DNA of 64,000 nt from a virus. This document shows, piece after piece, positions 15,994 through 63,930 of the stretch (within the stretch, counting starts at the first letter, position 1; each line of letters opens with the position of its first letter). Position numbers and translations under genes: made by a program. Location of the stretch: IMG/VR virus record IMGVR_UViG_3300045988_067909, one strand, 5' to 3'. The notes under the pieces were generated by a model. That model was not told the DNA's origin. It did no database searches and worked only from the letters and a program-made list of their open reading frames with translations.

Positions 15994-16009
15994 AGTTATA
16001 TACTATAAT
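15994..16009 (+). promoter_or_regulatory. copy of the recurring promoter-like motif AGTTATATACTATAAT
   Basis: Member of an 11-copy motif family, all in intergenic regions upstream of + strand genes. Confidence 0.55.
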
Positions 16010-16015
16010 GATGAT

Positions 16016-16033
16016 AGTGATAATTGTATCACT
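16016..16033 (+). promoter_or_regulatory. inverted repeat AGTGATAattgTATCACT just downstream of the promoter motif (candidate operator)
   Basis: TGATA/TATCA half-sites. A related palindrome GATGATAATTATCATC follows the promoter copy at 24326. Confidence 0.35.
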
Positions 16034-16072
16034 CTTATATTATTTATTTTCCACCAAAGGAGGTTAGAAATT

Positions 16073-16411
16073 ATGAATTACTATATTATGCAACAAATGA
16101 TGTGGATTGTAAAACCTAATGAAGAAACCGATCCAGATTATTTAAAAGTTTATGATAAGATATTTATTGGTGAAGATGTAGCTGAGTATTGCTTAAATAT
16201 GGCAGCTAAAACCAATGAAGAAATCGGTGCTATTGTAAATAGTATTAAGAATCAAGATTTGAAAGATAATGTAGCAGATACATTAAATCAAATCAAAGAA
16301 ATGTATCCTGATTCTGCTATTACGACAATATTAATATTAGATGATGATGTATGTACGATCGTATATGATTTCATCATCAAGGCTTCAGTGATTGATAAAA
16401 TTACTGAGTGA
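16073..16411 (+). CDS. small hypothetical protein (112 aa)
   Basis: RBS AAAGGAGGT. Compact spacing. Confidence 0.7.
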   Translation: MNYYIMQQMMWIVKPNEETDPDYLKVYDKIFIGEDVAEYCLNMAAKTNEEIGAIVNSIKNQDLKDNVADTLNQIKEMYPDSAITTILILDDDVCTIVYDFIIKASVIDKITE

Positions 16412-16422
16412 GGTATAATATC

Positions 16423-16761
16423 ATGGCACGCCTATATAATGTGACTATAAGTTTAATTGTATATGACCCTGATATTCCTGGGAGTGAACGAGAATCTTTA
16501 TATGAAGTTATTTCTCGTTATAAATCATTAGAAGAGGCTAATCGTATACTAGATGAAGCAGTCGAAAGATCTATAGAAGATCTTAAGAATGAAGAAGTTG
16601 ATTACGATCTAGGAACTGATATGCTTCTTAATGATCGTAAGAGAGACATATATCAGAAACATACGAGAAAGGCTGAACGTGTAGTAGTTATAGTTCATGG
16701 AAATAAAATATACATATGGGAGATATGGAAGTCCCCACAATGCACTACAGATTTCCACTAA
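16423..16761 (+). CDS. small hypothetical protein (about 112 aa)
   Basis: The track start 16408 is a GTG. The ATG at 16423 has RBS GAGTGAGG upstream. Confidence 0.65.
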   Translation: MARLYNVTISLIVYDPDIPGSERESLYEVISRYKSLEEANRILDEAVERSIEDLKNEEVDYDLGTDMLLNDRKRDIYQKHTRKAERVVVIVHGNKIYIWEIWKSPQCTTDFH

Positions 16762-16773
16762 GGAGGCATTTAT

Positions 16774-17073
16774 ATGCAAAGATATAGAGTCATAACTGAC
16801 ACATACTTATTTAATCATGAAGATGGTTTATTGGATCAGAACCCATTTAGACAAAACTATGTGATAGATGATCTTGATGATATTGATTATGCTATTCAAT
16901 ATGAAAAAGATAAATTGATACACTTTTATGGGGATGAAGAATACCCTAATCCAGATTCCGATCTTAATGATAAGATTGATGAACTTTTAGACCGTATTGA
17001 GTCTTTAGATAAACCACATAGTACGACATATATCGGTACAGATCGTGTGGTTCATATATTTATAGCTTTCTAG
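16774..17073 (+). CDS. small acidic protein (99 aa)
   Basis: RBS TAAGGAGG. D/E-rich. Confidence 0.7.
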   Translation: MQRYRVITDTYLFNHEDGLLDQNPFRQNYVIDDLDDIDYAIQYEKDKLIHFYGDEEYPNPDSDLNDKIDELLDRIESLDKPHSTTYIGTDRVVHIFIAF

Positions 17074-17086
17074 GAGGAATACTATT

Positions 17087-17431
17087 ATGTCTGATAAATA
17101 CATCGTTGTAAAAAACACATTCGAATACGATTACAAAGAACAAGTAATCACAACTGATGATTATGAAGCAGAGATCGATAATAAGATCTATAATTTCGAT
17201 ACAGGTAAGAAAGTCATTCAAGAAGAGTATAATGCTTTATATGAGCAAACAGAACTCAAAGATGAACCTGAAACTGAAGAAGATGAAATCCGTACTAAAG
17301 AAATGGATGAACTAGAAGACATCTTGAATGATGGTGATGACTTACCTGGGAACTTTGTATTCCGTGGTAAAGATAAAATTTACCAATGGTATCTCTTTGA
17401 ACTAGAAGAAGATACAGAAGACGAAGAATAA
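17087..17431 (+). CDS. small highly acidic protein (114 aa, about one-third D/E; C-terminus LEEDTEDEE)
   Basis: RBS TAGGAGGAA. Extreme acidity suggests a possible DNA mimic. Confidence 0.7.
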   Translation: MSDKYIVVKNTFEYDYKEQVITTDDYEAEIDNKIYNFDTGKKVIQEEYNALYEQTELKDEPETEEDEIRTKEMDELEDILNDGDDLPGNFVFRGKDKIYQWYLFELEEDTEDEE

Positions 17432-17438
17432 ATATATA

Positions 17439-17523
17439 CATTCTTAATACTATTATCACATGGTATTAAGAATGGTGTGTAGTATACTGGGGCTTTCCCA
17501 GTATACTGCATTTATTTTTTTTT
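17439..17523 (+). terminator. double-hairpin terminator (cattcttaatac...gtattaagaatg, then agtatactggggctttcccagtatact + long T-run)
   Basis: Two consecutive perfect stems, then a T-run of 12 or more. Confidence 0.7.
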
Positions 17524-17536
17524 GTATAATGATTTG

Positions 17537-17552
17537 AGTTATATACTATAAC
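17537..17552 (+). promoter_or_regulatory. promoter-like motif copy AGTTATATACTATAAC (a weaker TTGTATAAT sits at 17521-17533)
   Basis: Motif family member, 58 nt upstream of ATG 17610. Confidence 0.5.
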
Positions 17553-17609
17553 TATAGATAGATACATCATCTATCAAAGTATATATTATTTTATTAAGGA
17601 GGTTTTATT

Positions 17610-17933
17610 ATGGAATATGCTATCGCTAAAGAAGTATATGAGTATAACCCAGAAGTAAAAGAATTTGAATTAGTCCCTGGTAGCGTTGATAATGTGGTTG
17701 CTGATGGATTAACCATGAAAGAAGCAGTAGACTTTATTGAGTCTAATGCTAAACCTGAGCTCTTGTCTACAGTAGATATACCATGTAATGATGATCATGA
17801 AAGATTCTTAGGTTTTAAATTGAGCTGTAAGCTAGACAGACTCGGCAACGGTAGATCTATAGCCGAAGGACATCGTGTAGTACATTGGCGTATTATTCCT
17901 TGTCTTACAATGGATTTAAACAAAGACCAGTAG
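17610..17933 (+). CDS. small hypothetical protein (107 aa)
   Basis: RBS AAGGAGGT. Confidence 0.7.
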   Translation: MEYAIAKEVYEYNPEVKEFELVPGSVDNVVADGLTMKEAVDFIESNAKPELLSTVDIPCNDDHERFLGFKLSCKLDRLGNGRSIAEGHRVVHWRIIPCLTMDLNKDQ

Positions 17934-17943
17934 GAGGGTACTT

Positions 17944-18315
17944 ATGAATACGAAATATTTGATTATAACTAAAGAGCTACGTTATAATCGTATTAAAATA
18001 GGTGTAACTGAGAAGCTTTGTAGTGTAGTTGGGTATGAACCATATGTTTATCCTAGCAGAGAATATGCTATTGAAGAGCTAAATACATTAGACGCAGGTG
18101 AGCTTACTGATAATGAATTACCAGTAAAGATTAGTCAAATACGTAAGCATTTAAAAGATGTAGATAAAGATATGCTAGATATCTTTAATGATGCTATACG
18201 TATTCCTAAAGACCCAGAAAATAAAGAATTTAAGTTACAGAATGTAGCTATAGATAATACTAGCGGTGCGTTAGTTATTAGATGGTCTGAAATAGCTGAA
18301 GTCTTTGAAAAATGA
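17944..18315 (+). CDS. small hypothetical protein (123 aa)
   Basis: RBS TAGGAGGG. Confidence 0.7.
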   Translation: MNTKYLIITKELRYNRIKIGVTEKLCSVVGYEPYVYPSREYAIEELNTLDAGELTDNELPVKISQIRKHLKDVDKDMLDIFNDAIRIPKDPENKEFKLQNVAIDNTSGALVIRWSEIAEVFEK

Positions 18316-18333
18316 TTAGTTAATAAAAATTTT

Positions 18334-18349
18334 GGTTGTATAATATAAC
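18334..18349 (+). promoter_or_regulatory. promoter-like motif copy GGTTGTATAATATAAC followed by a 5'-UTR hairpin (aggaatgtgtattagctaagcacattcct)
   Basis: Motif family member upstream of the first adhesin gene. Perfect 9-bp stem at about 18351-18379. Confidence 0.5.
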
Positions 18350-18500
18350 TAGGAATGTGTATTAGCTAAGCACATTCCTTAGTATATTATGCAAATTTAC
18401 AGTTTAGCTAATTAAATCCAAGGAGGGATATAAAATCCTATAATACGCTCAAAATATTTTAAATTTAAGAATTCTAATTGTGTAAAGAAAGAGGTTTATT

Positions 18501-20282
18501 ATGAAAAAAGTTATTTTGACAGCAATGGTTATTGGCTCTTTGAGCCTAAATGTAATGGCAATTGATAACGCTACTGGGTCTGGTAGTGGTATCGCTTATG
18601 GTACAGGAAGTAGTGCTAATGGTACACATGATGTATCCATTGGTGTATCTTCTAAAGCCGAAAACTACACAAACCAAAATGGTTCGATAGCTATTGGTCA
18701 TAAAGCTCATACTGAACTTATGGCTGGTGGTGTTGAAGCAGCATTTGGTTTTGGTCAAACTACATATAGTGGGAGCGAATTCTCATCTGCACGTGTCCCA
18801 GCTGACCCATCTAAAGTTATTGGTGCAGTAGCTATTGGTAACAATACATATGCTCGTACAGGTTCTACTATGGTTGGTTCTCATAACTACCATGGTGAAA
18901 TTGGTGATGTTACCATTAATACAGATAAAGATGAAACAGGCACTAGAAGCCAAGCATTAAATGTATATGCAACTAATATTGGTGCAAATAGCTTCAGTAA
19001 TGGTGCTTTAACTACATCTACTGGTGCTTATAATATTATTTCTAGTTCCTATACTGGTGGTAGATTCTCTACACCATCTCAAAATCTAGGTGCTACTATT
19101 ACAGGTGCTATGAATAGTATTGAATCTAAAACTGCACAAGGTATTGGCTCTGGTTGGTTTGCTGATAGAACTGGTGTTGGTGTAGCTAATACTATTAATG
19201 GTCTAGCAAATAGAACTGCCAATACTAATGGCACTATTGTATTTGGTGCTGGTAATGAAGTCACAAATTCTATTGCAGAATTGACTGGTATTCCAAAAAA
19301 TACTGGTAACTCTGCTAAAGAGTTTGCTGGTAAACTAAGAGATGGTATCTCTAAGTCTAATGGTGGTGGTGCTACTATGGTAATTGGTGGTGGTAATAAA
19401 GCCGATTACACATTACGCACTTCTATGATTGGTGTAAATAACACAGTTACTGGTACGTCTGGAAATGAAAGCACAGACAACTTTGTAGTTGGTGTAAACA
19501 ATAATGCATCTAATGTATCTAATGCAATTATTGTTGGTAATAACCATAATGTAGCTAATGCAACACATACAGTTATTATTGGTTCTAGTGATAATGCTAC
19601 AAGCACAGTAGTAAATGATGCTGTAGCTATTGGTCATAATACAGAAGTATCTTACGTTGGTGGTGTAGCTCTTGGTGCACAATCTAAAGCTACAGTAAAT
19701 TCTGGTGTAGCTGGATATGATGTAGTAACTAAGACACAATCTACAAACAATAGCCCTGTATGGACTTCTACAGCTTCTGCTGTATCTGTTGGTGATGTAG
19801 ATAATAATGTGACTCGTCAAATCACATCTGTATCCGCAGGTACTAATGATACTGATGCAGTTAACGTTGCACAACTTAAACAATTAGACAGCAAAATCGA
19901 TACTGGTGTGTCTGATGTATTAAATCGTGCAAATAACTATACTGACACTCAAGTATCCAAAGTTGGTGCTAGAGCAGCAGCATTATCTGGATTACATTAT
20001 GTAGACTATAACCCTAACGATAAATGGAGCTTTGCTGCATCTTTAGGTGGTTATAAAGGTTCTACTGCTGGAGCTATTGGAGTCGCTTATCAACCAAATG
20101 AAAGCACTCTTATCCATGCAGGTGTAACTTTAACAGATAGTCCAATGTACAATATTGGTGCATCTTTCAAAGTAGGTAAACAAGATCCTACATTGAAAAC
20201 TAGCCGTATTGAAATGGCACAACAAATCAAAGATTTACAAGAGCAACTTGCTGAAATCAAAGCAGCTCTTGCAAATAAATAA
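18501..20282 (+). CDS. YadA-like trimeric autotransporter adhesin (593 aa) with signal peptide, head repeats, neck (DAVNVAQLK) and C-terminal beta-barrel anchor plus a short coiled-coil tail
   Basis: Signal peptide MKKVILTAMVIGSLSLNVMA. Repeated SIGxxS/AIGxN head motifs. NVAQLK neck at nt 19852-19878. Anchor VGARAAALSGLHY...GASFKVG at about nt 19962-20178. Confidence 0.8.
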   Translation: MKKVILTAMVIGSLSLNVMAIDNATGSGSGIAYGTGSSANGTHDVSIGVSSKAENYTNQNGSIAIGHKAHTELMAGGVEAAFGFGQTTYSGSEFSSARVPADPSKVIGAVAIGNNTYARTGSTMVGSHNYHGEIGDVTINTDKDETGTRSQALNVYATNIGANSFSNGALTTSTGAYNIISSSYTGGRFSTPSQNLGATITGAMNSIESKTAQGIGSGWFADRTGVGVANTINGLANRTANTNGTIVFGAGNEVTNSIAELTGIPKNTGNSAKEFAGKLRDGISKSNGGGATMVIGGGNKADYTLRTSMIGVNNTVTGTSGNESTDNFVVGVNNNASNVSNAIIVGNNHNVANATHTVIIGSSDNATSTVVNDAVAIGHNTEVSYVGGVALGAQSKATVNSGVAGYDVVTKTQSTNNSPVWTSTASAVSVGDVDNNVTRQITSVSAGTNDTDAVNVAQLKQLDSKIDTGVSDVLNRANNYTDTQVSKVGARAAALSGLHYVDYNPNDKWSFAASLGGYKGSTAGAIGVAYQPNESTLIHAGVTLTDSPMYNIGASFKVGKQDPTLKTSRIEMAQQIKDLQEQLAEIKAALANK

Positions 20283-20294
20283 TTCTACCATGTA

Positions 20295-20333
20295 TATGGC
20301 ATAGTATTGACGGTACTATGCCATACTTTTTTA
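20295..20333 (+). terminator. intrinsic terminator (tatggcatagtattgacggtactatgccata + TTTTTT)
   Basis: 11-bp stem followed by a T-run. Confidence 0.65.
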
Positions 20334-20359
20334 GCATATAGTTAAAAGGAGACATTCAA

Positions 20360-23077: not shown

Positions 23078-23091
23078 TCTAATTATAAGAA

Positions 23092-23140: not shown

Positions 23141-23188
23141 TATGATACTGAGGATATATCTAGTATTTCGTAAAACTGTTTTTTTTTT

Positions 23189-23204
23189 AGTTGTATACTA
23201 TAAT
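23189..23204 (+). promoter_or_regulatory. promoter-like motif copy AGTTGTATACTATAAT
   Basis: Preceded by a T9 run. 49 nt upstream of ATG 23253. Confidence 0.55.
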
Positions 23205-23252
23205 GGTAATATCATGGTTATATTTAGTTATTGAAGAAAAGGAGAATATATC

Positions 23253-23677: not shown

Positions 23678-23693
23678 AGTTATATATTATAAT
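23678..23693 (+). promoter_or_regulatory. promoter-like motif copy AGTTATATATTATAAT
   Basis: 40 nt upstream of ATG 23733. Confidence 0.5.
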
Positions 23694-23732
23694 CGTGACC
23701 AATGGTTAGGTTTATTTATAAGGAGGTATTTT

Positions 23733-24325: not shown

Positions 24326-24340
24326 AGTTGTATACTATAA
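24326..24340 (+). promoter_or_regulatory. promoter-like motif copy AGTTGTATACTATAA
   Basis: Followed by the perfect 16-bp palindrome GATGATAATTATCATC (24348-24363). Confidence 0.55.
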
Positions 24341-24347
24341 AGGTAAT

Positions 24348-26740: not shown

Positions 26741-28285
26741 ATGGAAGAAAGAAAATTAAACATGAATATCCGTCTTCATCATTCACCAAATGAATCATGG
26801 AAGACAACTATGGAGATTCTAGATTTAGATAAGCTTCGTATCGAGGGTATATCTAAAGGTAGAGACTTTATCATTTCTGAACCACAAACTGTAAAGAAAG
26901 ATTTAAAGTCAGATTCTTCCATCTTCTCTAGTAAATATGGAGCATCTATATCTGATGATAAAGATGCTTATAAGGATAGATATCGTTGTGAATGTGGTCA
27001 CTATACTGGTAGACTATATAATAACGAAATCTGTCCTTACTGTAATACTAAGGTCAAATATGTAGACGATGACCTTAATATTACTGGTTGGGTTGTATTA
27101 CAAGAGCATGTAATCATCCACCCTAACTTATTTAAGAACCTAGAGAAATTAATCACTCCAGCCGTTCTTAAAGACATCTTGACTCTAGATGTAGAGCTAG
27201 ATGAAAATGGATTCGAAGTATCTAAAGTAAATGAGAAAGTCAGAAAAGAATCTGGTGAGTATCATGGTATTGGTATGATAGAATTCTGTAAAAGAATAGA
27301 TGAGATTATGGAATACTTTGCTCGTAAGAACAAGTCCAAGAAAGATAAGATAGCTAACTATGAGTTGCTACTAAAATATAGGGACAGATTACTTACACAT
27401 TCTATTCCAGTATATTCTCTATTCTTACGTATGGTTAATCTCCAAGGGGATAAGTTCTCCTTTAAAGGAGCTAATGCTATTTACAATAATATCGCTAAAT
27501 ATGCAGCATTAGTAAATGGCAACCGTACAGTAATCCAAGCAAGAGATCAATTTAAAGATGAGGCTCTCTTGAATATTCAATATCTATATGCTGGGTCTAA
27601 TGATTCTTTGTATGATTCTGTCATTGAAGAATTAGCACATAAGAAAGGTGCCATTCAATCTGCATTAGCTGGACGGTATAACTTTACTGGTCGTAATGTA
27701 ATCATTCCAGATGCTACATTACGTATTGATGAGATTAAGCTTCCATATAACTCATTACTAGTTCTATTGGAACAAACTATCATCAATATCCTAGCTAGAT
27801 CTTATAATATCACTTATAGCGATGCTCATAAGAAGTGGTGGAAAGCCCAAACTTATGTAGATCCAGTTATATTAGATATCATCAAAGGTATCATTAAGTC
27901 TTACCCTCGAGGTATTCCATTCATCATCAATCGTAACCCAACTATCAACTATGGTTCTGTGTTACAAATGTATTGTATTGATGTATTGGTAGATTCATTC
28001 ACTATGAGAGTTCCATTACAGGTATTACCTGGTATGAATGCGGACTTTGACGGTGACTGCTTGAATATCACTTATCTTATTAATAAGGAATTCGTAGCTA
28101 GATGTGAAGAGTCTTTGAATCCTAGAAATACTATGATGATTTCTAAGAACAATGGGCGATTCAATTCATTCATGAACTACTTCAAGGATACTATTGTAAA
28201 CTTGAATAGTTTCTGTAATCTAGGTTTCGATACTTATACTAAAGATGAGATAGATGATATCAAAGCTCTAATGGAGGGTAGATAA
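26741..28285 (+). CDS. multisubunit RNA polymerase beta-prime subunit, N-terminal fragment (through the catalytic NADFDGD loop); split phage-encoded RNAP
   Basis: RBS TAGGAGGAG. Beta-prime zinc ribbon RYRCECGHYTGRLYNNEICPYCNTKV (nt 26987-27043; E. coli [25 protein letters not shown]). GMNADFDGDCLN (nt 28037-28057), then NPRNTMMISKNNG matching E. coli MMSTNNILSPANG. The ORF stops about 50 aa after the active site, as in split jumbo-phage RNAPs. Confidence 0.8.
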   Translation: MEERKLNMNIRLHHSPNESWKTTMEILDLDKLRIEGISKGRDFIISEPQTVKKDLKSDSSIFSSKYGASISDDKDAYKDRYRCECGHYTGRLYNNEICPYCNTKVKYVDDDLNITGWVVLQEHVIIHPNLFKNLEKLITPAVLKDILTLDVELDENGFEVSKVNEKVRKESGEYHGIGMIEFCKRIDEIMEYFARKNKSKKDKIANYELLLKYRDRLLTHSIPVYSLFLRMVNLQGDKFSFKGANAIYNNIAKYAALVNGNRTVIQARDQFKDEALLNIQYLYAGSNDSLYDSVIEELAHKKGAIQSALAGRYNFTGRNVIIPDATLRIDEIKLPYNSLLVLLEQTIINILARSYNITYSDAHKKWWKAQTYVDPVILDIIKGIIKSYPRGIPFIINRNPTINYGSVLQMYCIDVLVDSFTMRVPLQVLPGMNADFDGDCLNITYLINKEFVARCEESLNPRNTMMISKNNGRFNSFMNYFKDTIVNLNSFCNLGFDTYTKDEIDDIKALMEGR

Positions 28286-30266: not shown

Positions 30267-30282
30267 AATTGTATATTATAAC
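30267..30282 (+). promoter_or_regulatory. promoter-like motif copy AATTGTATATTATAAC
   Basis: Directly after the terminator T-run. 97 nt upstream of ATG 30379. Confidence 0.5.
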
Positions 30283-30378
30283 TATAAGTACATCCGTACA
30301 TAAAGTTTGTAAAAACTCGTTATACGGATATATATGGTTATTATTTATATTAAATTGTGTTAGAATAGGAGATTAAAA

Positions 30379-31321: not shown

Positions 31322-31336
31322 AGTTGCATACTATAA
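31322..31336 (+). promoter_or_regulatory. promoter-like motif copy AGTTGCATACTATAA
   Basis: Followed by the structured leader. Confidence 0.5.
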
Positions 31337-31337
31337 A

Positions 31338-31434
31338 CGTGTATGGTAGATACAGCTAGTCTCAAGTAGCTGTATCTAAATATAACCATACACTTGTAGG
31401 AGTATATCCTACTTGCCGAAAGGAGGTGACTCCT
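31338..31434 (+). promoter_or_regulatory. structured 5' leader, copy A: long imperfect hairpin (gtgtatggtagatacagct / agctgtatctaaatataaccatacac), second hairpin (gtagga...tcctac), and an SD-sequestering hairpin AGGAGgtgaCTCCT immediately before the ATG
   Basis: Duplicated with loop-only differences at 31713-31809. Confidence 0.45.
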
Positions 31435-31696: not shown

Positions 31697-31712
31697 GATT
31701 GTATACTATAAT
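31697..31712 (+). promoter_or_regulatory. promoter-like motif copy GATTGTATACTATAAT
   Basis: Followed by leader copy B. Confidence 0.5.
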
Positions 31713-31809
31713 TGTGTATGGTAGATACAGCTGCCTACAATAGCTGTATCTAAATATAACCATACACTTGTAGGATATTAATCCTACTTGCCGAAAGGAG
31801 GTGACTCCT
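31713..31809 (+). promoter_or_regulatory. structured 5' leader, copy B (same stems as copy A, different loop sequences, identical SD-sequestering hairpin)
   Basis: Arms conserved. Loop gcctacaat vs agtctcaagt, and tatta vs gtata. Confidence 0.45.
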
Positions 31810-45073: not shown

Positions 45074-45125
45074 ATAGTAACCTCCTTTTAAAAGTCGTCA
45101 AATTATATAAATGTTAAAGTACACC

Positions 45126-51415: not shown

Positions 51416-51646
51416 GAATAGTAGCTCCTCCGTTGAAAAAATAAGAGATTTTACTAATATGTTTCCCTAGGCTATTTATATCGAGTCAGGGTTATATGCC
51501 CCTATGCCACAGTGTGACATAAAGGCATATAGGAATTGGTAGTATATATTTATTATAGGAGAAATTTTAAACGCATTAAACTAAACAAGATTTATTAGTC
51601 GCCGCATTTACTAATAAGTTATGATTGTAAAAGTTTAATTTAACTA

Positions 51647-51668
51647 TATTGTCAACTATATATTATAG
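51647..51668 (+). promoter_or_regulatory. variant promoter-like motif TATTGTCAACTATATATTATAG
   Basis: 20 nt upstream of ATG 51688, within a 270-bp divergent intergenic region. Confidence 0.4.
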
Positions 51669-57873: not shown

Positions 57874-57888
57874 AGTGAGGTAAGATTA

Positions 57889-60087
57889 ATGGCTAGAGGT
57901 AATGAATTAAACAATAAATTCATGATTGAATGGCCTAATCTAGTTATATACGTTAGGTATGTATTCCAAACGCTATACAGACAAGACAATCGAGAAATCT
58001 TAGCTACGTTGTTAAAGCTTATGAATAAGATGGATCCTGAAAAGGTTTATGATATCAAGACTCAAGAAAAGCATATAAACGTATTTAAGTTTCTCAAGGC
58101 TTTATTAGAAAGAAGACTTAATGGTAATAAAGATAAAGATCTTCTTATTGAAGTGTGTACTGATGGTCTAATCAAGAAACACTTACCATTAAATCAAATA
58201 GATAACCCATTGAATAGTAGTGACTTTGCAGTTATAGAGCAACGTATCTATTCTGACTATGAAAACTATTCAGTTATCACATACATGGCACAAGCCCATG
58301 ATAAATTCATTGAGTTGACTACAGCTGGTAGCCAACTAGAACGTGAAGCAGTATTAAAAGATATGCGTCTTAGATTACGTGATATTGGTACGACTTTACG
58401 TCAAACAGCTAATACAGCAACAGGGTCAGAGACATTCTCATTGACAGATTCTGATGTATTTATTAGAACTATGGGTAATGTATATGACCGTTTGCATAAT
58501 CCATCTACTAAGCTTAAGACTGGTATGCAAGCATTTAATAATATCATCTCTGGTGGTTTCGAGAATGGACGTATCTATCTATTATTCGGTCTACCAGGTG
58601 AGGGTAAATCAATGACAATGCTTAACTTAGCATTGCAATTGAAGAAATTCAATAGACAATATCAACCAAAAGATCCAACTAAAAGACCATGTATTGTGTA
58701 TCTTACAATGGAAAACTCTCTTGAAGAAACCATTGAACGTGCACATGGTATCTTAGTAGCTAAAGATTTTGATAAAAGATTATCATTAGAAGAAATGACA
58801 GAGCAATTTAAGAATAGTGGCTTTGCTGTAACTGATGATGACCCTATTGATATCGTTATTAAGTATATTCCAGCCAATACTGTAGATACAGACTATGTAT
58901 ATGCATTGTATGATGAGCTGGCAGATAGTAATAAAGAAGTCATTTGTATGGTACAAGACTATATCAAGCGTATTAAATGTCGTGATTTTGATATTCTTGG
59001 TAAAGACCCATACATGGCACTAGGCTCTGTAGTAGATGAGTTTAAACAATTTGCTATAGACAAAGATATTCCAGTTATAACTGCATCACAGTTAAACCGT
59101 GAAGCGGCTAAAGCTATCGATGAGGGACGTAAGATTAGTCGTAATAACTTGGTAGAATGTGTCGGTCGTAACAATATCGGTGAGTCTATCAAGATTCTAG
59201 AAAATATCGATAGTGGTATTATCATTATTCCAGAGAAAGATGCCGCAGATAATCCTTATATGGGCTTCTCTCTCATTAAGAGTCGTTATGGTACTAACGC
59301 ACCTAAGAGATTCTATCATCCATTCAATCCAGAGAAGCCAGTTGAGTTGCTCTGTGATGAGGGATGTACAACACCTGTTCATAGATTGACTATGACAGAC
59401 TTATCATTAGCAGCACAAAATGCTGAATCTGTAAGAAATACTAAACCAGAAGAGGTTAAGAGTGCTGAAAGTGAATTAAAGTCTACAGACCCTAAGATTC
59501 CTGTTAAAGAAGAACCTAAAGAGGAAGCTAAACCTGTAGATAAAGAACAAGCTAGATTAGAACGTCAAAAGAAAAAGATGACACCAGAGTATTCTGGTAC
59601 ATTACCTAGTGGTACTAAAGCTATTGCTCGAGGAGTTAATCCATTTGCTATAGCTAAACTAGAAATGACAGTTGACAAGTTTAATCAAGATAAGATTAAT
59701 GGGTTTAAGAAGTCTGAATATACTGATCGTTCATTAGATATGATTAAGTATAACTTAGAGATTCCTGTTAATGCATTAGAATCTGATATATGTCCATATA
59801 TCCCACCAGAAGAATTTGATGAAATGGTATATGTACGTAAAGGTAGAGCTAATGAGGCTTTAGATAGAGCTCAGGCGAGAGAATATTTAAATCTTATTAA
59901 GAAATGGTCTCCACGTCAAGGTGAGTTTAAGTCTCCATCTATGTTTGTGGCACTACCAAATCAAAGTCTATTATCTGTAGGGTACTTTGCTGAGCAACAT
60001 GGTATGAAAGATAAAATCAAACCTATGTTTAGAAGTGCAGAACCAATCCCTATGTTTATAGAAGAACCAAAGTATGATATTGGATAA
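57889..60087 (+). CDS. DnaB-like replicative helicase with a long Lys/Glu-rich C-terminal extension
   Basis: RBS GTGAGGTAAG. NIISGGFENGRIYLLFGLPGEGKSMTMLNLA (DnaB H1/Walker A). ITASQLNREA (DnaB H4). Confidence 0.75.
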   Translation: MARGNELNNKFMIEWPNLVIYVRYVFQTLYRQDNREILATLLKLMNKMDPEKVYDIKTQEKHINVFKFLKALLERRLNGNKDKDLLIEVCTDGLIKKHLPLNQIDNPLNSSDFAVIEQRIYSDYENYSVITYMAQAHDKFIELTTAGSQLEREAVLKDMRLRLRDIGTTLRQTANTATGSETFSLTDSDVFIRTMGNVYDRLHNPSTKLKTGMQAFNNIISGGFENGRIYLLFGLPGEGKSMTMLNLALQLKKFNRQYQPKDPTKRPCIVYLTMENSLEETIERAHGILVAKDFDKRLSLEEMTEQFKNSGFAVTDDDPIDIVIKYIPANTVDTDYVYALYDELADSNKEVICMVQDYIKRIKCRDFDILGKDPYMALGSVVDEFKQFAIDKDIPVITASQLNREAAKAIDEGRKISRNNLVECVGRNNIGESIKILENIDSGIIIIPEKDAADNPYMGFSLIKSRYGTNAPKRFYHPFNPEKPVELLCDEGCTTPVHRLTMTDLSLAAQNAESVRNTKPEEVKSAESELKSTDPKIPVKEEPKEEAKPVDKEQARLERQKKKMTPEYSGTLPSGTKAIARGVNPFAIAKLEMTVDKFNQDKINGFKKSEYTDRSLDMIKYNLEIPVNALESDICPYIPPEEFDEMVYVRKGRANEALDRAQAREYLNLIKKWSPRQGEFKSPSMFVALPNQSLLSVGYFAEQHGMKDKIKPMFRSAEPIPMFIEEPKYDIG

Positions 60088-60095
60088 AAAACACA

Positions 60096-60116
60096 GAAGA
60101 GTACAGTGTACTCTTC
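60096..60116 (-). terminator. hairpin gaagagtacagtgtactcttc between convergent genes; the U-run is on the minus-strand side only
   Basis: 9-bp stem. AAAAAAC precedes it on the plus strand. Confidence 0.5.
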
Positions 60117-60126
60117 CGTGGATAGA

Positions 60127-60552
60127 TTAGGTTATATCATGTGAGTAGTTATAAGAATCTATATACTTCTTATTAGAAGCATAGACATACGAAAGTAAAT
60201 TAAGTAGTTCTTTCTTTGGAATCAAGTATATAGTCTTCTTATTAAAGTCTTTGATACTATATAAACCATTGATAGCTAGTATGATATAATGGAATTCACT
60301 ATTACCATAGATATCATTAGCCAAGAGTTTTGGTTTGTATTTGTATTTACGAAACTCTTCATCAGTCAAGGTTATCTTATATGCTTCTCTCTTGAAGTCA
60401 CTAAGATAGTCTGTAGTGATTAAGTTTCTAAAAGGGATTTCCAATGTCCCTTTGGATGACGATTTCATATAGTACGAATAAGCATGAAAGTCTGAGTTAT
60501 TCATTGGTTTCATACTAATGAATTCTTGGATACTACTTATCTCTGTAGGCAT
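60127..60552 (-). CDS. hypothetical protein (141 aa)
   Basis: RBS GGGAGGGATTACG. Minus-strand two-gene island. Confidence 0.65.
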   Translation of the reverse strand: MPTEISSIQEFISMKPMNNSDFHAYSYYMKSSSKGTLEIPFRNLITTDYLSDFKREAYKITLTDEEFRKYKYKPKLLANDIYGNSEFHYIILAINGLYSIKDFNKKTIYLIPKKELLNLLSYVYASNKKYIDSYNYSHDIT

Positions 60553-60901
60553 CGTAATCCCTCCCTATAACAATTGGTTTAGTAATATCACCACTAGGGA
60601 AACCGATTATAAATCTAGTCCCAGGTGGGATATATTTATATGGATATTGTCTAGCAACTTCTTTAGGCATTTCCACTAATATATTAGACCCAACCTGAAT
60701 CTTGCCACCTTTGATAGGTTCTTTATTGACAAGATTTGATGGTTGTACGTTTATAGTTTGCTTTGTGTTAGACTTAAGATTCATAGGATTTAAAGAGGGT
60801 AAATAGAAAGTTTGAAATCCTGGCTTATATTTATCACAAGGCGATGTTAATATACCGATTTCGGTGTGTTGGAAGTCGGTATTAGTGTTATATTCGTTCA
60901 T
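60533..60901 (-). CDS. hypothetical protein (122 aa)
   Basis: RBS AGGAGGATTTACGAC. Confidence 0.65.
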   Translation of the reverse strand: MNEYNTNTDFQHTEIGILTSPCDKYKPGFQTFYLPSLNPMNLKSNTKQTINVQPSNLVNKEPIKGGKIQVGSNILVEMPKEVARQYPYKYIPPGTRFIIGFPSGDITKPIVIGRDYDAYRDK

Positions 60902-60953
60902 GTCGTAAATCCTCCTGATTACAATACTGTTTCAGAGGTAGAAAGGTACTCTT

Positions 60954-61490
60954 ATGGGAAGCATGTTTGTTAGTGTTCAAAAGTTTCCAACTTATACGAG
61001 ACAAGAGTTTGAGAAAGATGTATTCTATACATGTGGTTTAGTATACAATCCAGCTAAGTCTCTACAGATTATGTTTGAAACTGATGTAGGACAGTTAATT
61101 CCTGTATTTATTAAAGGTAGACCATTATGTTTTGAGCAAGATGCTCAAGCATTGACTCTACAAAACCCAGTTATCTATGATCCATTGAATAATGTGGCTA
61201 TTATGAAGACATTATTCGATATGTATCTAGATTTGGTCCAAGAATCTCCTACAGTGGTTACTTATGCTAAAGTCAACCCTAAGAAAAGAGATATTAAGGG
61301 TCAAGTACAAATTGTAATGGATAATGGTGTAACGTATTCATCTGGCATCTATTACAATGACAGTCTTAAGTATATGGACTGTATAAATTATTTATGCGGA
61401 TATGATACTTCCAATTTGAAAGAGATAGACTTTACTCAATCTGAAATGGAAGCTATCAAAGAACGCAGTAGAGCTAAGAGAGGCCAATAA
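60954..61490 (+). CDS. hypothetical protein (178 aa)
   Basis: RBS AGAAAGGTACTCTT. Confidence 0.65.
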   Translation: MGSMFVSVQKFPTYTRQEFEKDVFYTCGLVYNPAKSLQIMFETDVGQLIPVFIKGRPLCFEQDAQALTLQNPVIYDPLNNVAIMKTLFDMYLDLVQESPTVVTYAKVNPKKRDIKGQVQIVMDNGVTYSSGIYYNDSLKYMDCINYLCGYDTSNLKEIDFTQSEMEAIKERSRAKRGQ

Positions 61491-61492
61491 AG

Positions 61493-61816
61493 ATGAAACA
61501 AATTCTAGAGACTCAAGAAAAGTTGAATAAATATATTATGTACGCAGTATTTACTGGATTAGCAATTATTACTGCTATAACTATAGCTGGTGCAGTATTT
61601 GGTGTATTCAGAAGTCATGATGGTGGTAGAACTGCGCAAATCAGACCTATATTGGAAGAGCATATCCCTCCTGTTGGTGGACAAGTAGCAGTAACCTACG
61701 ATTATCCAACGAGTGATGCTATCAATCAGATGATTGCTCAAGGATATACTGTAGAGACTATTATTTATGATAATTTTAAAGACCAAGCTATTGTAGTATA
61801 CAAACGGGTGAAGTAA
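61493..61816 (+). CDS. small membrane protein, paralog 1 of 4 (N-terminal transmembrane helix, conserved C-terminal ...QGYTVETIIYD...VVYKRVK)
   Basis: TM helix YIMYAVFTGLAIITAITIAGAVFGVF. C-terminal motif shared with the next three genes. Confidence 0.65.
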   Translation: MKQILETQEKLNKYIMYAVFTGLAIITAITIAGAVFGVFRSHDGGRTAQIRPILEEHIPPVGGQVAVTYDYPTSDAINQMIAQGYTVETIIYDNFKDQAIVVYKRVK

Positions 61817-61817
61817 A

Positions 61818-62108
61818 ATGAAAAAATTTGTGTTTTTAGTGATGATTATGATTTCTCTAGTTTCAATTACAGGTTGTACTACAAGTTTAAGTTCAACTCA
61901 TGATAGAGCGGTTGATCTTAATGAAAAAGCATTAAAAGATTTAACCCCAGCTATAAATGATACTGTTGTAGTTTCTTATGAAAGTGATGCTGAAGTAAAC
62001 CAAGGTATAGCTGATATGAAAGATCGTGGTTTTAAAATTAAAGGTGTAACTGTACGTAGCACTAGTTATGATGGAAGAACTGTAGTTGTTTATACACGGG
62101 TACAATAA
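61818..62108 (+). CDS. small lipoprotein, paralog 2 of 4 (lipobox ITGC)
   Basis: MKKFVFLVMIMISLVSITGC signal. C-terminal GIADMKDRGFKIKGVTV...VVYTRVQ. Confidence 0.65.
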   Translation: MKKFVFLVMIMISLVSITGCTTSLSSTHDRAVDLNEKALKDLTPAINDTVVVSYESDAEVNQGIADMKDRGFKIKGVTVRSTSYDGRTVVVYTRVQ

Positions 62109-62109
62109 T

Positions 62110-62412
62110 ATGAGAACTTTAATGATTGTATTTCTTACAGTAGTTGCATTCTTTGTTGCAAGCTGTGGTATAGATACTAGACCTACTGCTGAGAAAGCAC
62201 CTGAGGTGGCTGTTATGATTAATGATAAGTCATTAGAAAAAGCTACACCAGATATTGGTGGTATTAAGCTAGTCAAATATAGTCCAGTATTTGCTAATGA
62301 GGGTATAGCTGATATGGAGTCTCGTGGTTATAAAGTAAAGCAAATATCAGAGACTTCTGCTACACTATTCCAATCACCATCAACTACGGTTATGTATGAA
62401 AGGGTAAAATAA
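62110..62412 (+). CDS. small lipoprotein, paralog 3 of 4 (lipobox VASC)
   Basis: The track start 62086 overlaps. ATG 62110 follows ACGGGTACAATAAT, analogous to its neighbours. C-terminal GIADMESRGYKVKQ...VMYERVK. Confidence 0.6.
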   Translation: MRTLMIVFLTVVAFFVASCGIDTRPTAEKAPEVAVMINDKSLEKATPDIGGIKLVKYSPVFANEGIADMESRGYKVKQISETSATLFQSPSTTVMYERVK

Positions 62413-62413
62413 T

Positions 62414-62719
62414 ATGAAAACTTTTATAGGTTGTATTATAGCTATTATTCTTATAGGTATTGGTTCTTTTATATACTATCATACTGATTTAGTAAGACAA
62501 GAGACATCAGACCAAAAGTTTAATGTAGCTGTAGCACAAAACAATACATCTTTACAAGAATATACACCAGCTGTTGGGGATACTAAGTCTATGCTTTATA
62601 AGACTAAGTATGCTACATATGGTATCGACAATATGACGGCTCGTGGATATCAATTACTTACAGTATATACTGATGATAGACATTATGAAACCTTCGTCGT
62701 ATTCAAGAGGGTGAGATAA
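62414..62719 (+). CDS. small membrane protein, paralog 4 of 4
   Basis: TM helix FIGCIIAIILIGIGSFIYY. C-terminal GIDNMTARGYQLLTV...VVFKRVR. Confidence 0.65.
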   Translation: MKTFIGCIIAIILIGIGSFIYYHTDLVRQETSDQKFNVAVAQNNTSLQEYTPAVGDTKSMLYKTKYATYGIDNMTARGYQLLTVYTDDRHYETFVVFKRVR

Positions 62720-63915
62720 TGAAATTCCAATTAAACCCAGGACAGCAGGCAGTCGTTGACGCTGCTGTCAACTGGTTTAATAATAGCTCTGAATTGGTGT
62801 TTCAGTATACTGGTGCTGCTGGTACTGGTAAGACTGTTGTACTATTTGAGATTATTAACCGTTTAGGGTTATCTATAGATGAGCTATTACCTATGAGCTT
62901 TACTGGTACAGCAGCTATAGTTATGCGTAATCGTGGTTTATTCACAGCTAAGACTATACATGCATCTATCTATGAGCCTGTAGAGCAAATCCAATATGAT
63001 GGGTTAGGTAGACCTATTATGGATCCATACTTTAACAAGCCTAAAGTTACAACTAAGTTTGTTAAACGTGAGCAACTAGAGGGTGTTAAGCTTATCTTAA
63101 TAGATGAAGCTTCTATGACACCTAAGTCTATGGTTAAAGACATTGAATCTTTTGGTATTAAGATTATAGCCTGTGGTGATTTGAATCAGTTACCACCTGT
63201 AGCTGATGAACCAGGTTACTTAGTAGACGGTAAGGTTCATTTTTTAACTGATATTATGCGTCAAGGAGAGAACTCTGGTATCATCTATTTAGCAGATAGA
63301 GCTATTAAAGGGCTTCCTATACACTATGGCACTTATAATAATGCTGTAGTTATAGATGAAGATATGCTTACTGATGACTTCTTGATACAGTCTCCTATAA
63401 TATTGACATGTAAGAATGCTACAAGAGAAACTATTAATGATTATCTACGAGACTTACGTGGTGTAAAGTCTAAGTTACCTATGCATGGTGAACCAGTTAT
63501 CTGTAGAAAGAATAACTGGAGTATAGAGTGTGATGGTATTAACTTAGTTAATGGACTACGTGGTACAGTAGAGAACTTCCCAGATGTATCTTCTCGTGGT
63601 AGTGAACGTAATATCTTTAAGATAGACTTTAGACAGGGTAGACTATTATTTAGAGATGTCAAGTGTGACTATGATTATTTCAATGCAGACTATGATGATA
63701 AGAATAGACTACGTAATAGTCCTTACTCTCCGGGGAATAAGATTGAGTTAGCATATGCTATCACTACACATCTCTCTCAAGGTTCTCAGTATTATTCTGG
63801 AATATTCATTGAAGAGTGGTTACGTAAGGATATTATGCCCAACTTAATATATACTGGTATAACCAGATTCTCTGATTATATGATATATGTAAAACGCAAA
63901 CCTAAGTTCTACTAG
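62719..63915 (+). CDS. Dda/RecD-like superfamily 1 helicase
   Basis: Walker A GAAGTGKT. Walker B LILIDEASM. C-terminal AYAITTHLSQGSQY motif. Confidence 0.75.
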   Translation: MKFQLNPGQQAVVDAAVNWFNNSSELVFQYTGAAGTGKTVVLFEIINRLGLSIDELLPMSFTGTAAIVMRNRGLFTAKTIHASIYEPVEQIQYDGLGRPIMDPYFNKPKVTTKFVKREQLEGVKLILIDEASMTPKSMVKDIESFGIKIIACGDLNQLPPVADEPGYLVDGKVHFLTDIMRQGENSGIIYLADRAIKGLPIHYGTYNNAVVIDEDMLTDDFLIQSPIILTCKNATRETINDYLRDLRGVKSKLPMHGEPVICRKNNWSIECDGINLVNGLRGTVENFPDVSSRGSERNIFKIDFRQGRLLFRDVKCDYDYFNADYDDKNRLRNSPYSPGNKIELAYAITTHLSQGSQYYSGIFIEEWLRKDIMPNLIYTGITRFSDYMIYVKRKPKFY

Positions 63916-63930
63916 AGTTATATATTATAA
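63916..63930 (+). promoter_or_regulatory. promoter-like motif copy AGTTATATATTATAAG
   Basis: 22 nt upstream of ATG 63952. Confidence 0.45.

What the first reader, a model, noticed from the sequence alone, without database searches (positions are those of the whole stretch)
15994..63930. Eleven copies of a 15-nt promoter-like motif AGTT(G/A)TATA(C/T)TATAA marking early/moron-type transcription units
Copies at 15994, 17537, 18334, 23189, 23678, 24326, 30267, 31322, 31697, 51647 (variant) and 63916 are all intergenic and all on the plus strand. They lie 20-240 nt upstream of a start codon and usually directly after a hairpin terminator T-run. There is no -35 element at the correct spacing. Conservation over 15 nt exceeds what a sigma-70 -10 needs. 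None occurs in front of the rSAM operon or the structural genes. Combined with the phage RNAP subunit, this looks like a phage-specific promoter class, either an extended -10 for host RNAP or a target of the phage-encoded RNAP.
Basis: seen in the sequence. Interest (0 to 1): 0.65.

Follow-up and report, generated by a model that had tools for sequence, protein, structure and literature searches.

The report
Early promoters of a jumbo phage
The repeated 15-base motif is most likely the early-gene promoter of an uncultured, roughly 265 kb human-associated jumbo phage, read by an RNA polymerase carried in the virus particle; this promoter class is already known from Bacillus phage AR9 and phiKZ, so the finding is real but expected.

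Summary
Ten of the eleven reported copies are real. A position-weight scan gives 26-32 bits for each, the next best window position scores 11.4, and all ten are intergenic on the + strand. The 51647 "variant" is not a member.

The conserved block is about 21 nt: AGTTRTATAYTATAA-NNR-T-R. It aligns with the mapped early promoter of Bacillus jumbo phage AR9, AAATATATATTAT-(6N)-G+1. The TATAYTAT core is shared, and a purine sits 6 nt after ...TAT.

The window belongs to a ~265 kb jumbo phage from human metagenomes. Its RNAP gene (26741-28285) is the non-virion RNAP beta'-N orthologue and itself lies downstream of a motif copy. The same contig also encodes a virion-type beta'-N.

A second motif, AACA-N6-TA, matches the AR9 late consensus. 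It precedes structural-type genes that lack the early motif.

The best reading is an AR9/phiKZ-type early promoter class used by the injected virion RNAP. This is inferred by homology; no RNA data were available. Host sigma-70 use is unlikely, because 8 of 10 sites lack any -35 element.

Verdict: a new member of a known kind, of modest interest.

The parts
15994..16013 (+). Early promoter copy 1, AGTTATATACTATAA-tgaT-G. Predicted transcription start (TSS) is G16013. It drives the small ORFs from 16073 to 17431.
   Evidence: Exact match. Weight-matrix score 31.3 bits. Follows the terminator at 15942-15968.
17537..17556 (+). Early promoter copy 2. Predicted TSS A17556. Drives the ORFs at 17610-18315.
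   Evidence: Exact match. 28.5 bits. Follows the terminator at 17477-17511.
18334..18353 (+). Early promoter copy 3, GGTTGTATAATATAA. Predicted TSS G18353. Drives the YadA-like adhesin genes at 18501-20282 (and 20360-23077?).
   Evidence: 2 mismatches. 27.5 bits. Adhesin domains identified.
23189..23208 (+). Early promoter copy 4. Predicted TSS A23208. Drives the ORF at 23253-23606.
   Evidence: Exact match. 32.3 bits. Follows the terminator at 23099-23125.
23678..23697 (+). Early promoter copy 5. Predicted TSS G23697. Drives the ORF at 23733-24311.
   Evidence: Exact match. 29.5 bits. Follows the terminator at 23616-23642.
24326..24345 (+). Early promoter copy 6. Predicted TSS A24345. A 236-nt leader precedes the operon 24581-28521, which contains the nvRNAP beta'-N gene.
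   Evidence: Exact match. 31.3 bits. The leader holds a very stable hairpin plus U-run.
26741..28285 (+). Gene for the N-terminal half of the non-virion RNAP beta' subunit (NADFDGD catalytic motif). It is a product of a motif-driven unit, not the enzyme that reads the motif.
   Evidence: PHROG 'RNA polymerase beta subunit' family, 1.5e-63. Pfam Rpb1 domain 2. AR9 nvRNAP beta' chain 7S00_d, 5e-40. NADFDGD motif. Weak match (4e-7) to the virion-type profile.
30267..30286 (+). Early promoter copy 7, AATTGTATATTATAA. Predicted TSS A30286. Drives the ORF at 30379-31251.
   Evidence: 1 mismatch. 26.5 bits. Follows the terminator at 30231-30257.
31322..31341 (+). Early promoter copy 8. Predicted TSS G31341. 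A conserved 95-nt leader (TSS to ATG) precedes a 58-aa ORF at 31436-31611.
   Evidence: 1 mismatch. 29.5 bits. Leader and ORF.
31697..31716 (+). Early promoter copy 9. Predicted TSS G31716. The same conserved leader precedes a 68-aa ORF at 31811-32016.
   Evidence: 2 mismatches. 27.3 bits..
63916..63935 (+). Early promoter copy 10. Predicted TSS G63935. The ORF starts at 63952 and runs off the window (171 aa in a related contig).
   Evidence: Exact match. 26.0 bits. The orthologous site in L075 is followed by a 171-aa ORF.
51647..51661 (+). The reported 'variant' copy. Rejected as a member.
   Evidence: Score below 8 bits in either register. Sequence shown.
10616..10627 (+). Late-type promoter-like site, AACACTCTTATA. 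It lies 34 nt before the start codon of gene 10661-12121 and directly after a terminator hairpin.
   Evidence: Matches the AR9 late consensus AACA-(6N)-TA/G (PMC5312081).
28600..28611 (+). Late-type promoter-like site, AACATTTATATA. It lies 25 nt before the start codon of gene 28636-30222.
45104..45115 (-). Late-type promoter-like site, AACATTTATATA. It lies 31 nt before the start codon of gene 43463-45073 (minus strand).
51452..51463 (-). Late-type promoter-like site, AACATATTAGTA. It lies 37 nt before the start codon of gene 50483-51415 (minus strand), a virion-protein homologue.
60920..60931 (-). Late-type promoter-like site, AACAGTATTGTA. It lies 19 nt before the start codon of genes 60533-60901 and 60127-60552 (minus strand); the latter is baseplate-wedge-like.

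Best explanation
The motif is this phage's early promoter, of the AR9/phiKZ type.

Shown here: the phage is a ~265 kb jumbo phage that encodes two sets of split multisubunit RNAP genes.

Inferred by homology with AR9 and phiKZ:
- The virion-packaged RNAP (vRNAP) is injected with the DNA.
- It recognises the AT-rich element AGTTRTATAYTAT centred near -10.
- It starts transcription at the conserved purine 6 nt after ...TAT, that is, at motif start +19.
- It needs neither the host sigma factor nor new protein synthesis.

These promoters drive short, terminator-bounded units. They encode small host-takeover or unknown proteins, adhesin genes, and an operon holding the non-virion RNAP beta'-N. Once made, the non-virion RNAP would transcribe late and structural genes from a different element, AACA-N6-TA.
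For: 1. Statistics and placement.
- Six exact copies against 0.01 expected.
- Ten sites at 26-32 bits against 11.4 for the next best; all intergenic and co-oriented with the downstream gene.
- In 16 further loci of the same or closely related phages, 49 of 49 sites scoring at least 18 bits lie outside long ORFs. In 43 of 49, an SD plus ORF on the same strand follows 17-112 nt after the predicted start.

2. Match to a mapped promoter class.
- The AR9 early promoter is AAATATATATTAT-(6N)-G+1, mapped by dRNA-seq and primer extension. It is insensitive to chloramphenicol and attributed to vRNAP (PMC5312081).
- Here the element is AGTTRTATAYTAT-(AAnnrT)-R. That is 10-11 of 13 positions, the same TATAYTAT core, and the same 6-nt spacing to a conserved purine.
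- The AR9-like phage Goe21 has the exact AR9 consensus 180 nt upstream of its nvRNAP beta'-N gene.
- MarsHill phages share the TATATTAT core upstream of 29 genes (bioRxiv 10.1101/2020.12.14.422802).
- A review states that every RNAP-encoding jumbo phage has such a motif before its early operons (PMC7598289).

3. The enzymes are present.
- The window gene is the nvRNAP beta'-N: AR9 nvRNAP chain 7S00_d at 5e-40, phiKZ gp55 at 3e-15.
- An nvRNAP beta-N homologue lies in the related locus L096 (7S00_c, 4e-41).
- A virion-type beta'-N lies on the same 267,353-bp contig as the window. It scores 1e-131 against a profile of vRNAP beta'-N homologues and 9e-59 against AR9 gp144, which is annotated as a virion RNAP subunit.
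- No early motif lies within 13.6 kb around that gene.

4. A second promoter class sits where expected.
- AACA-N6-TA lies 19-37 nt before five genes that lack the early motif. Two of them have virion or baseplate homologues.
- There are 6 intergenic copies against 1.5 expected.
- It occurs in 16 of 70 upstream regions against 4.1 in shuffles, with a maximum of 10 in 500 shuffles.

5. Conservation in relatives.
- Phages with 44-48% nvRNAP beta'-N identity carry (A/G)ATTATATATTATA(A/T)-nnaTGaa at intergenic sites.
- Strain variants keep high-scoring sites at syntenic positions.

6. Sigma-70-type promoters are not enriched, and 8 of 10 sites lack a -35 element.
Against: - No transcript 5' ends, timing data, rifampicin data or virion proteomics exist for this phage. 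The start site, the early timing and the identity of the polymerase are all inferred by homology, at about 28% protein identity to AR9.
- Only one vRNAP subunit (beta'-N) was located, and its presence in virions is untested.
- The element contains TATAYT and TATAAn hexamers, and 2 of 10 sites have a weak -35. Some host RNAP use cannot be excluded.
- The copy upstream of the nvRNAP operon (24326) is followed by a very stable hairpin plus U-run (-59 kcal/mol, z = -9.2). This could terminate transcription before the nvRNAP gene.
- Motif identity between strains (0.84) is only modestly higher than flank identity (0.73-0.77).
- The replication module at 51688-60087 carries neither motif.
Confidence: 0.85

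Rival explanations
1. These are host sigma-A (sigma-70 family) promoters with an unusually conserved extended -10 region. The host RNAP would transcribe the early genes until the phage RNAP is made.
For: - The motif contains TATAYT and TATAAn, which resemble TATAAT.
- Two sites get a weak -35 call: TTGTCC-17-TATACT at 15976 and TTGTAA-18-TATATT at 23659.
- A TTGTAAAA-like element often lies upstream at variable distance.
Against: - 8 of 10 sites have no -35 at 16-18 nt, and there is no TG extended -10 in register.
- The base after TATAA (the would-be T-7) is not conserved.
- Conservation spans about 21 nt, including AGTT and a downstream T-R.
- Sigma-70-like sites are not enriched in the region (65 against 87 in shuffles).
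- The homologous AR9 and phiKZ elements work without host RNAP (PMC7598289; PMC13282480).
Confidence: 0.07
2. The motif is the promoter for the phage RNAP whose subunit is encoded in the window, the non-virion RNAP.
For: The RNAP beta'-N gene lies in the same region as the motif copies.
Against: - That gene is itself downstream of a motif copy, so the enzyme cannot exist when the motif must first be used.
- It is the orthologue of the AR9 nvRNAP, which recognises AACA-N6-TA/G on the template strand (PMC7598289).
- That different motif is present here before structural-type genes.
Confidence: 0.04
3. The motif is not a promoter. It is an operator for a phage regulator, or a repeat spread by duplication of terminator-containing intergenic cassettes.
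For: - Two terminator stems upstream of motif copies are duplicated: 15942 matches 31263, and 23099 matches 23616.
- The 31322 and 31697 units are tandem duplicates with a shared leader.
Against: - Sequences between terminator and motif differ among copies while the motif is kept.
- Strict co-orientation and a fixed short distance to SD plus start codons hold at 59 sites.
- The motif matches an experimentally mapped promoter class.
- An operator role in addition to promoter function is not excluded.
Confidence: 0.04

Closest known systems
AR9 / PBS1-group (Takahashivirus) early promoters, AAATATATATTAT-(6N)-G+1, attributed to the virion multisubunit RNAP (Lavysh et al. 2017, PMC5312081)
   Same: - The TATAYTAT core is shared, and 10-11 of 13 positions match.
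- A conserved purine lies 6 nt downstream.
- The element is intergenic, lies before short terminator-bounded early units, and lies upstream of nvRNAP genes.
- It is paired with a separate AACA-N6-TA late class.
- The phage has both the virion and the non-virion RNAP sets.
   Different: - The 5' part is AGTT instead of AAAT, and C is tolerated in the core (TATACTAT).
- Extra conserved positions are present: TATAA and R-T before +1.
- The RNAP proteins are only about 28% identical to those of AR9.
- The phage is uncultured and comes from human metagenomes, probably with a Negativicutes host.
- There is no transcript evidence here.
phiKZ and phiR1-37 early promoters (AT-rich consensus centred near -10, start 6 nt downstream; Ceyssens 2014 and Leskinen 2016, as summarised in PMC7598289)
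   Same: The architecture and logic are the same: the injected vRNAP reads a long, invariant AT-rich element, and the nvRNAP genes are among the products.
   Different: The consensus sequence differs from phage to phage. phiKZ forms a phage nucleus and uses a TATG late promoter. The late motif here is AR9-like, not phiKZ-like.
Staphylococcus jumbo phages MarsHill and S6: early motif predicted by MEME (core TATATTAT; bioRxiv 10.1101/2020.12.14.422802)
   Same: That motif was also found purely bioinformatically upstream of about 29 genes, and it has the same core.
   Different: In MarsHill no late motif could be found de novo. Here the AACA-N6-TA class is detectable.
Bacterial sigma-70 extended -10 promoters
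   Same: An AT-rich TATA-type element near -10, and no need for a good -35.
   Different: There is no TGn in register, the would-be -7 T is not conserved, and conservation is far longer than sigma region 2/3 requires.

Membership tests
[quoted passage not shown] | The phage encodes two sets of split beta/beta' multisubunit RNAP genes, one virion and one non-virion. | tested here: met
   - nvRNAP beta'-N is in the window (7S00_d, 5e-40).
- An nvRNAP beta-N homologue lies in the related locus L096.
- A virion-type beta'-N lies on the same 267-kb contig: 1e-131 to the vRNAP profile and 9e-59 to AR9 gp144.
- Only one subunit of the virion set was located.
[quoted passage not shown] | A highly conserved AT-rich element of 10 nt or more, over-represented upstream of a subset of operons and intergenic. 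| tested here: met
   Ten of ten sites are intergenic and scores are bimodal. In related loci, 49 of 49 sites are intergenic.
[quoted passage not shown] | Sequence relationship to the AR9-group consensus AAATATATATTAT-(6N)-G. | tested here: met
   10-11 of 13 positions match, and a purine lies 6 nt after TAT in all ten sites. The AR9 consensus was verified in Goe21.
[quoted passage not shown] | nvRNAP genes lie downstream of such promoters; virion and late genes lack them and use another promoter. | tested here: met
   - The 24326 copy precedes the operon holding beta'-N. Caveat: a strong hairpin lies in the leader.
- No copy lies in the structural block or near the vRNAP gene.
- AACA-N6-TA precedes those genes.
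[quoted passage not shown] | Primary transcript 5' ends lie about 6 nt downstream, appear within minutes, and are independent of protein synthesis and host RNAP. | not testable with these tools
   No RNA or infection data exist for this uncultured phage.
[quoted passage not shown] | The cognate RNAP is packaged in the virion. | not testable with these tools
   This needs virion proteomics.
Sigma-70 (sigma-A) promoters | A -35 TTGACA-like hexamer 16-18 nt upstream of a TATAAT-like hexamer with conserved A-11 and T-7, or a TGn extended -10. | tested here: not met
   Only 2 of 10 sites pass a lenient scan. There is no enrichment over shuffles and no TG in register. The base after TATAA is variable.
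N4-type virion RNAP promoters | A short DNA hairpin (5-7 bp stem, 3-nt loop) just upstream of the start site, and a single-subunit giant vRNAP. | tested here: not met
   The motif is not a hairpin. Upstream hairpins are 12-16 bp terminators with T-runs, 10-65 nt away. The other hairpins lie downstream of the predicted start. The RNAP genes found are of the multisubunit type.
AR9-type late promoters (nvRNAP, AACA-(6N)-TA/G) | The motif matches AACA-N6-T(A/G) close upstream of late genes. | tested here: not met
   The 15-mer does not contain this pattern. The pattern occurs at other, separate sites.

The most novel reading that the evidence does not exclude
Both AR9 promoter classes are kept almost unchanged in a very large, uncultured clade of human-associated jumbo phages: the early element TATAYTAT-N6-R and the late element AACA-N6-TA. 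The clade comprises 878 nvRNAP beta'-N homologues, many on 214-264 kb contigs, and its RNAPs are only about 28% identical to AR9's. The AR9 late promoter is read on the template strand and strictly needs deoxyuridine. The retained AACA element, together with the nearest cultured relatives (AR9, BpSp, phiR1-37 and S6 are reported to have uracil-DNA genomes, and MarsHill is presumed to), would then imply that these abundant, probably Veillonella-infecting human phages also have uracil-DNA genomes and a uracil-dependent late switch.
Probability: 0.2. Interest if true: 0.6.

Novelty: new member of a known kind. Interest (0 to 1): 0.3.

Why it matters
The result gives a ready-made transcription map for an uncultured ~265 kb jumbo phage lineage that recurs in many human metagenome assemblies.
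- It names ten early units in this window and dozens more in related contigs.
- It gives predicted start sites and a candidate late class.
- It identifies which genes are likely expressed first: small unknown proteins, adhesin-like genes and nvRNAP subunits.
- It shows that AR9-type promoter specificity extends far beyond Bacillus and Staphylococcus phages.

It does not reveal a new mechanism. Reviews already state that every RNAP-encoding jumbo phage has such a motif.

Tried and rejected
- Megablast of 15000-32100 against the phage collection found nothing, so there is no close cultured relative.
- tRNA and Rfam scans of the window found nothing.
- The 51647 "variant" was rejected in both registers.
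- A consistent -35 element was looked for. The upstream TTGTAAAA/CGTAAAAC element lies at variable distance and was not accepted as a -35.
- The large minus-strand ORFs (32088-51415) were tested as possible vRNAP subunits. They have no RNAP domains in PHROGs or Pfam.
- ORFs 28636-30222 and 25320-26237 were tested as the fifth nvRNAP subunit or another RNAP part. They have no match in the phage collection or among solved structures.
- The first 50 kb of MarsHill was read to find vRNAP genes; none were there.
- The first vRNAP-based locus search hit other co-occurring phage species rather than this one. A second query found the gene on the window's own contig.
- Comparing motif identity with flank identity between strains gave only a weak contrast (0.84 against 0.73-0.77). 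It is not used as strong evidence.
- Whether the phage has uracil DNA could not be addressed with the sequence available.

Full report
**1. Observation**

The pattern AGTTRTATAYTATAA occurs six times exactly. All six are on the + strand, against 0.01 expected from shuffles. Allowing two mismatches adds 18334, 30267, 31322 and 31697, also on the + strand. It also adds two minus-strand hits, at 35531 and 56461, which are not members of the family.

I built a 26-nt weight matrix from the ten + strand sites. They score 26-32 bits (18-30 bits leave-one-out). The next best position on either strand scores 11.4 bits, so the family is sharply bounded.

The eleventh reported copy, at 51647, scores below 8 bits. 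So does the alternative register at 51653. I reject it.

With a hand-curated gene model, intergenic DNA makes up 5.1% of the window. All ten sites lie in it.

De novo 8-mer enrichment in intergenic DNA recovers four kinds of word: T-runs, Shine-Dalgarno (SD) words, the motif cores (TACTATAA, TATATTAT, TATACTAT) and terminator loops.

There is a T-rich 5' flank, and a T-purine at motif +4/+5, usually preceded by a purine.

Terminator-like hairpins are enriched in 15900-32100, 19 against 5.6 in shuffles. Seven of the ten sites sit 10-65 nt behind one. Sigma-70-like promoter matches are not enriched (65 against 87). Only two motif sites obtain a weak -35.

**2. What the window is**

- GC content is about 33%, and strong AGGAGG ribosome-binding sites are present.
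- Radical-SAM genes lie at 309-10392.
- Large minus-strand ORFs lie at 32088-51415. They include a phiKZ gp28-like virion protein.
- A replication module lies at 51688-63915.
- ORF 26741-28285 matches the PHROG family 'RNA polymerase beta subunit' and carries NADFDGD.
- Its best cultured relatives, at 25-29% identity, are phiR1-37, vB_BpuM-BpSp, Goe21 (AR9-like), LPJP1 and the Staphylococcus jumbo phages. In those records it is annotated as a non-virion beta' subunit.
- The same protein occurs on IMG/VR contigs of 260-267 kb from human metagenomes, for example IMGVR_UViG_3300007186_000004 at 267,353 bp.
- It has 878 homologues in the large protein collection. Many are on contigs of 214-264 kb.

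The window is therefore part of an uncultured jumbo phage of the RNAP-encoding group.

**3. Match to a known promoter class**

Lavysh et al. mapped 41 AR9 early promoters with the consensus AAATATATATTAT-(6N)-G+1. These are active without protein synthesis and are attributed to the injected virion RNAP (vRNAP). AR9 late promoters are AACA-(6N)-TA/G (PMC5312081).

A review states that a conserved AT-rich motif centred near -10 can be found upstream of early operons in each RNAP-encoding jumbo phage. It also states that the nvRNAP genes are early genes (PMC7598289).

Aligned side by side, the two elements are:

- AR9: AAATATATATTAT-NNNNNN-G
- This phage: AGTTRTATAYTAT-AAnnrT-R

That gives 10-11 of 13 positions, the same TATAYTAT core, and a conserved purine at the same 6-nt distance in all ten sites.

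I checked the AR9 consensus directly. In Goe21 the exact 13-mer plus N6-G lies 180 nt upstream of the nvRNAP beta'-N gene and before two other genes. The AR9 record annotates 13-nt 'early promoter' features, including one just upstream of the nvRNAP beta'-C gene. MarsHill phages share the TATATTAT core upstream of 29 genes.

**4. Both polymerases are present**

AR9 vRNAP subunits are gp078, gp125, gp145, gp189 and gp264.

I took exon 1 of the AR9 gene annotated as virion RNAP beta' N-terminus. I collected its homologues, built a profile and searched IMG/VR.

The contig that carries this window also carries a 537-aa ORF about 110 kb away, as do its strain variants 3300008275_000006, 3300007123_000011 and 3300008747_000009. 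This ORF scores 1e-131 against the vRNAP beta'-N profile and 9e-59 against AR9 gp144. It has GGDYDGD as its catalytic motif.

The window's own beta'-N scores only 4e-7 against that profile. It is therefore the non-virion paralogue.

No early-motif copy lies within 13.6 kb around the vRNAP gene.

An nvRNAP beta-N homologue was also found in a related locus (7S00_c, 4e-41).

**5. A second promoter class where it should be**

Intergenic regions without the early motif often carry AACA-N6-TA just after a terminator and 19-37 nt before the start codon. The sites are 10616 and 28600 on the + strand and 45115, 51463 and 60931 on the minus strand.

The pattern occurs 29 times in the window on both strands. 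Six copies are intergenic, against about 1.5 expected.

I then examined 70 SD-preceded upstream regions from the window and same-phage loci. Sixteen carry the pattern, against 4.1 in dinucleotide shuffles, with a maximum of 10 in 500 shuffles. The genes concerned include virion structural protein genes and SbcC.

This matches the AR9 late consensus, not the phiKZ TATG type.

**6. More sites and relatives**

An IMG/VR pattern scan returned many co-oriented clusters in related jumbo contigs.

In 16 such loci, 49 of 49 sites scoring at least 18 bits are outside long ORFs. In 43 of 49, an SD plus ORF on the same strand follows 17-112 nt after the predicted start, with a median of about 50 nt. Many sites head arrays of 95-190-aa genes, each with its own promoter.

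Phages with 44-48% nvRNAP beta'-N identity carry a drifted version, (A/G)ATTATATATTATA(A/T)-nnaTGaa, which is even closer to AR9.

Strain variants keep high-scoring sites at syntenic positions. However, identity in the motif (0.84) is only modestly above that in the flanks (0.73-0.77).

**7. Mechanism proposed**

Shown here:
- the motif family, its placement and its orientation;
- its match to the AR9 early consensus;
- the presence of nvRNAP and vRNAP-type genes;
- a separate AR9-late-like motif.

Inferred by homology:
- the injected vRNAP binds the element;
- it starts at the purine at motif start +19;
- it transcribes short units up to the next terminator;
- the nvRNAP made from these units then uses AACA-N6-TA.

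How any jumbo-phage vRNAP recognises its promoter is itself unknown (AR9 discussion).

One caveat applies. The leader after the 24326 copy contains a hairpin of -59 kcal/mol (z = -9.2) followed by a U-run. The nvRNAP operon may therefore depend on read-through.

**8. Rivals**

- Host sigma-A use. It is disfavoured by the missing -35, the lack of a TG in register, the non-conserved would-be -7 position and the length of conservation.
It is excluded by logic, because its gene lies downstream of the motif, and by the separate late motif.
- Operator or duplicated cassette. Some terminators and the 31322/31697 units are duplicated. However, the spacers differ while the motif is kept, and its geometry relative to SD and start codons is fixed.

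**9. Novelty**

This is a new member of a known kind: the early promoter set of an uncultured jumbo phage. The conservation of both AR9 promoter classes at about 28% RNAP identity is noteworthy. It raises, but does not show, the possibility of uracil DNA in this human-associated clade.

Noticed in passing
window 10616-10627(+), 28600-28611(+), 45104-45115(-), 51452-51463(-), 60920-60931(-): A second motif, AACA-N6-TA, lies just after terminators and 19-37 nt before the start codons of genes lacking the early motif. Three of the five share an extended AACAyTyTTATAATTT-like form. It equals the AR9 late (nvRNAP) consensus and is enriched over shuffles (16 of 70 upstream regions against 4.1).
   Followed up: yes
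window 31341-31435 and 31716-31810; also L058, L081, L093, L038 and strain variants: A conserved ~93-nt 5' leader runs from the predicted start site to the ATG. It has a long hairpin, a second hairpin and an SD mini-hairpin (AGGAG-GTGA-CTCCT). It precedes small ORFs of at least three unrelated families (58-68 aa), in 26 distinct sequence variants, of which 22 were aligned. Hairpin 2 shows compensatory changes (8 A-U to G-C). There is no Rfam match. Its function is unknown; it could be a translational control element or a cassette junction.
   Followed up: partly
window 24345-24485: The leader of the 24326 unit folds into a very stable long hairpin (-59.4 kcal/mol, z = -9.2) followed by a U-run. 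It lies upstream of the operon that contains the nvRNAP beta'-N gene. It could be an attenuator, a terminator or the end of a ~130-nt RNA. Other strains have a different leader here.
   Followed up: partly
window, starts at 16013, 17556, 18353, 24345, 30286, 31341 and 31716: Most predicted early transcripts begin with a stem-loop within the first ~25 nt. The mean z-score is -2.1 over ten 45-nt 5' segments, and seven of the ten are at or below -1.7. This may be a 5' stabilising structure.
   Followed up: partly
window 18501-20282 and 20360-23077: Two early-promoter-adjacent genes encode YadA-type trimeric autotransporter adhesins. Both have stalk and anchor domains; the second also has head repeats and a C-terminal SLH domain. 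The nearest genomic relatives (38-46% identity) are in Veillonella MAGs, which suggests a Negativicutes host and adhesin carriage by the phage.
   Followed up: partly
window 15942-15968 = 31263-31289; 23099-23125 = 23616-23642: Identical 27-nt terminator hairpins occur twice each. Both types share the loop context GTCAATGAC, and both read as terminators on both strands.
   Followed up: no
window 23659, 31302 and 51631 (and CGTAAAAC at 23167 and 24307): A TTGTAAAA/CGTAAAAC element recurs between the terminator T-run and the early motif, at variable distance (9-16 nt). Four of the seven window copies of TTGTAAAA are intergenic. Its role is unexplained.
   Followed up: no
window 51416-51687 and 51688-60087: The replication module (exonuclease and DnaB-like helicase) has neither the early nor the late motif upstream. 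The sequence AACTATATATTATAG-aaaTG at 51653 matches the AR9 early consensus at 12 of 13 positions but scores below 8 bits with this phage's matrix. The module's promoter is unidentified.
   Followed up: no
window 4578-5780 and 5797-6921 (within the rSAM cluster 309-10392): Two adjacent ~375-400-aa ORFs start with nearly the same sequence (ATGGCAGATATAGAATTTAATATGAA...). They are tandem paralogues inside a cluster with at least three radical-SAM enzymes. A fourth rSAM gene lies just upstream of the window (L038).
   Followed up: no
loci L148-L343 (IMG/VR): Several distinct related jumbo-phage species co-occur in the same human metagenome samples. Their vRNAP beta'-N identities are 62-100%, and their contigs range from 231 to 295 kb. 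The vRNAP beta'-N is much better conserved across the clade than the nvRNAP beta'-N.
   Followed up: partly
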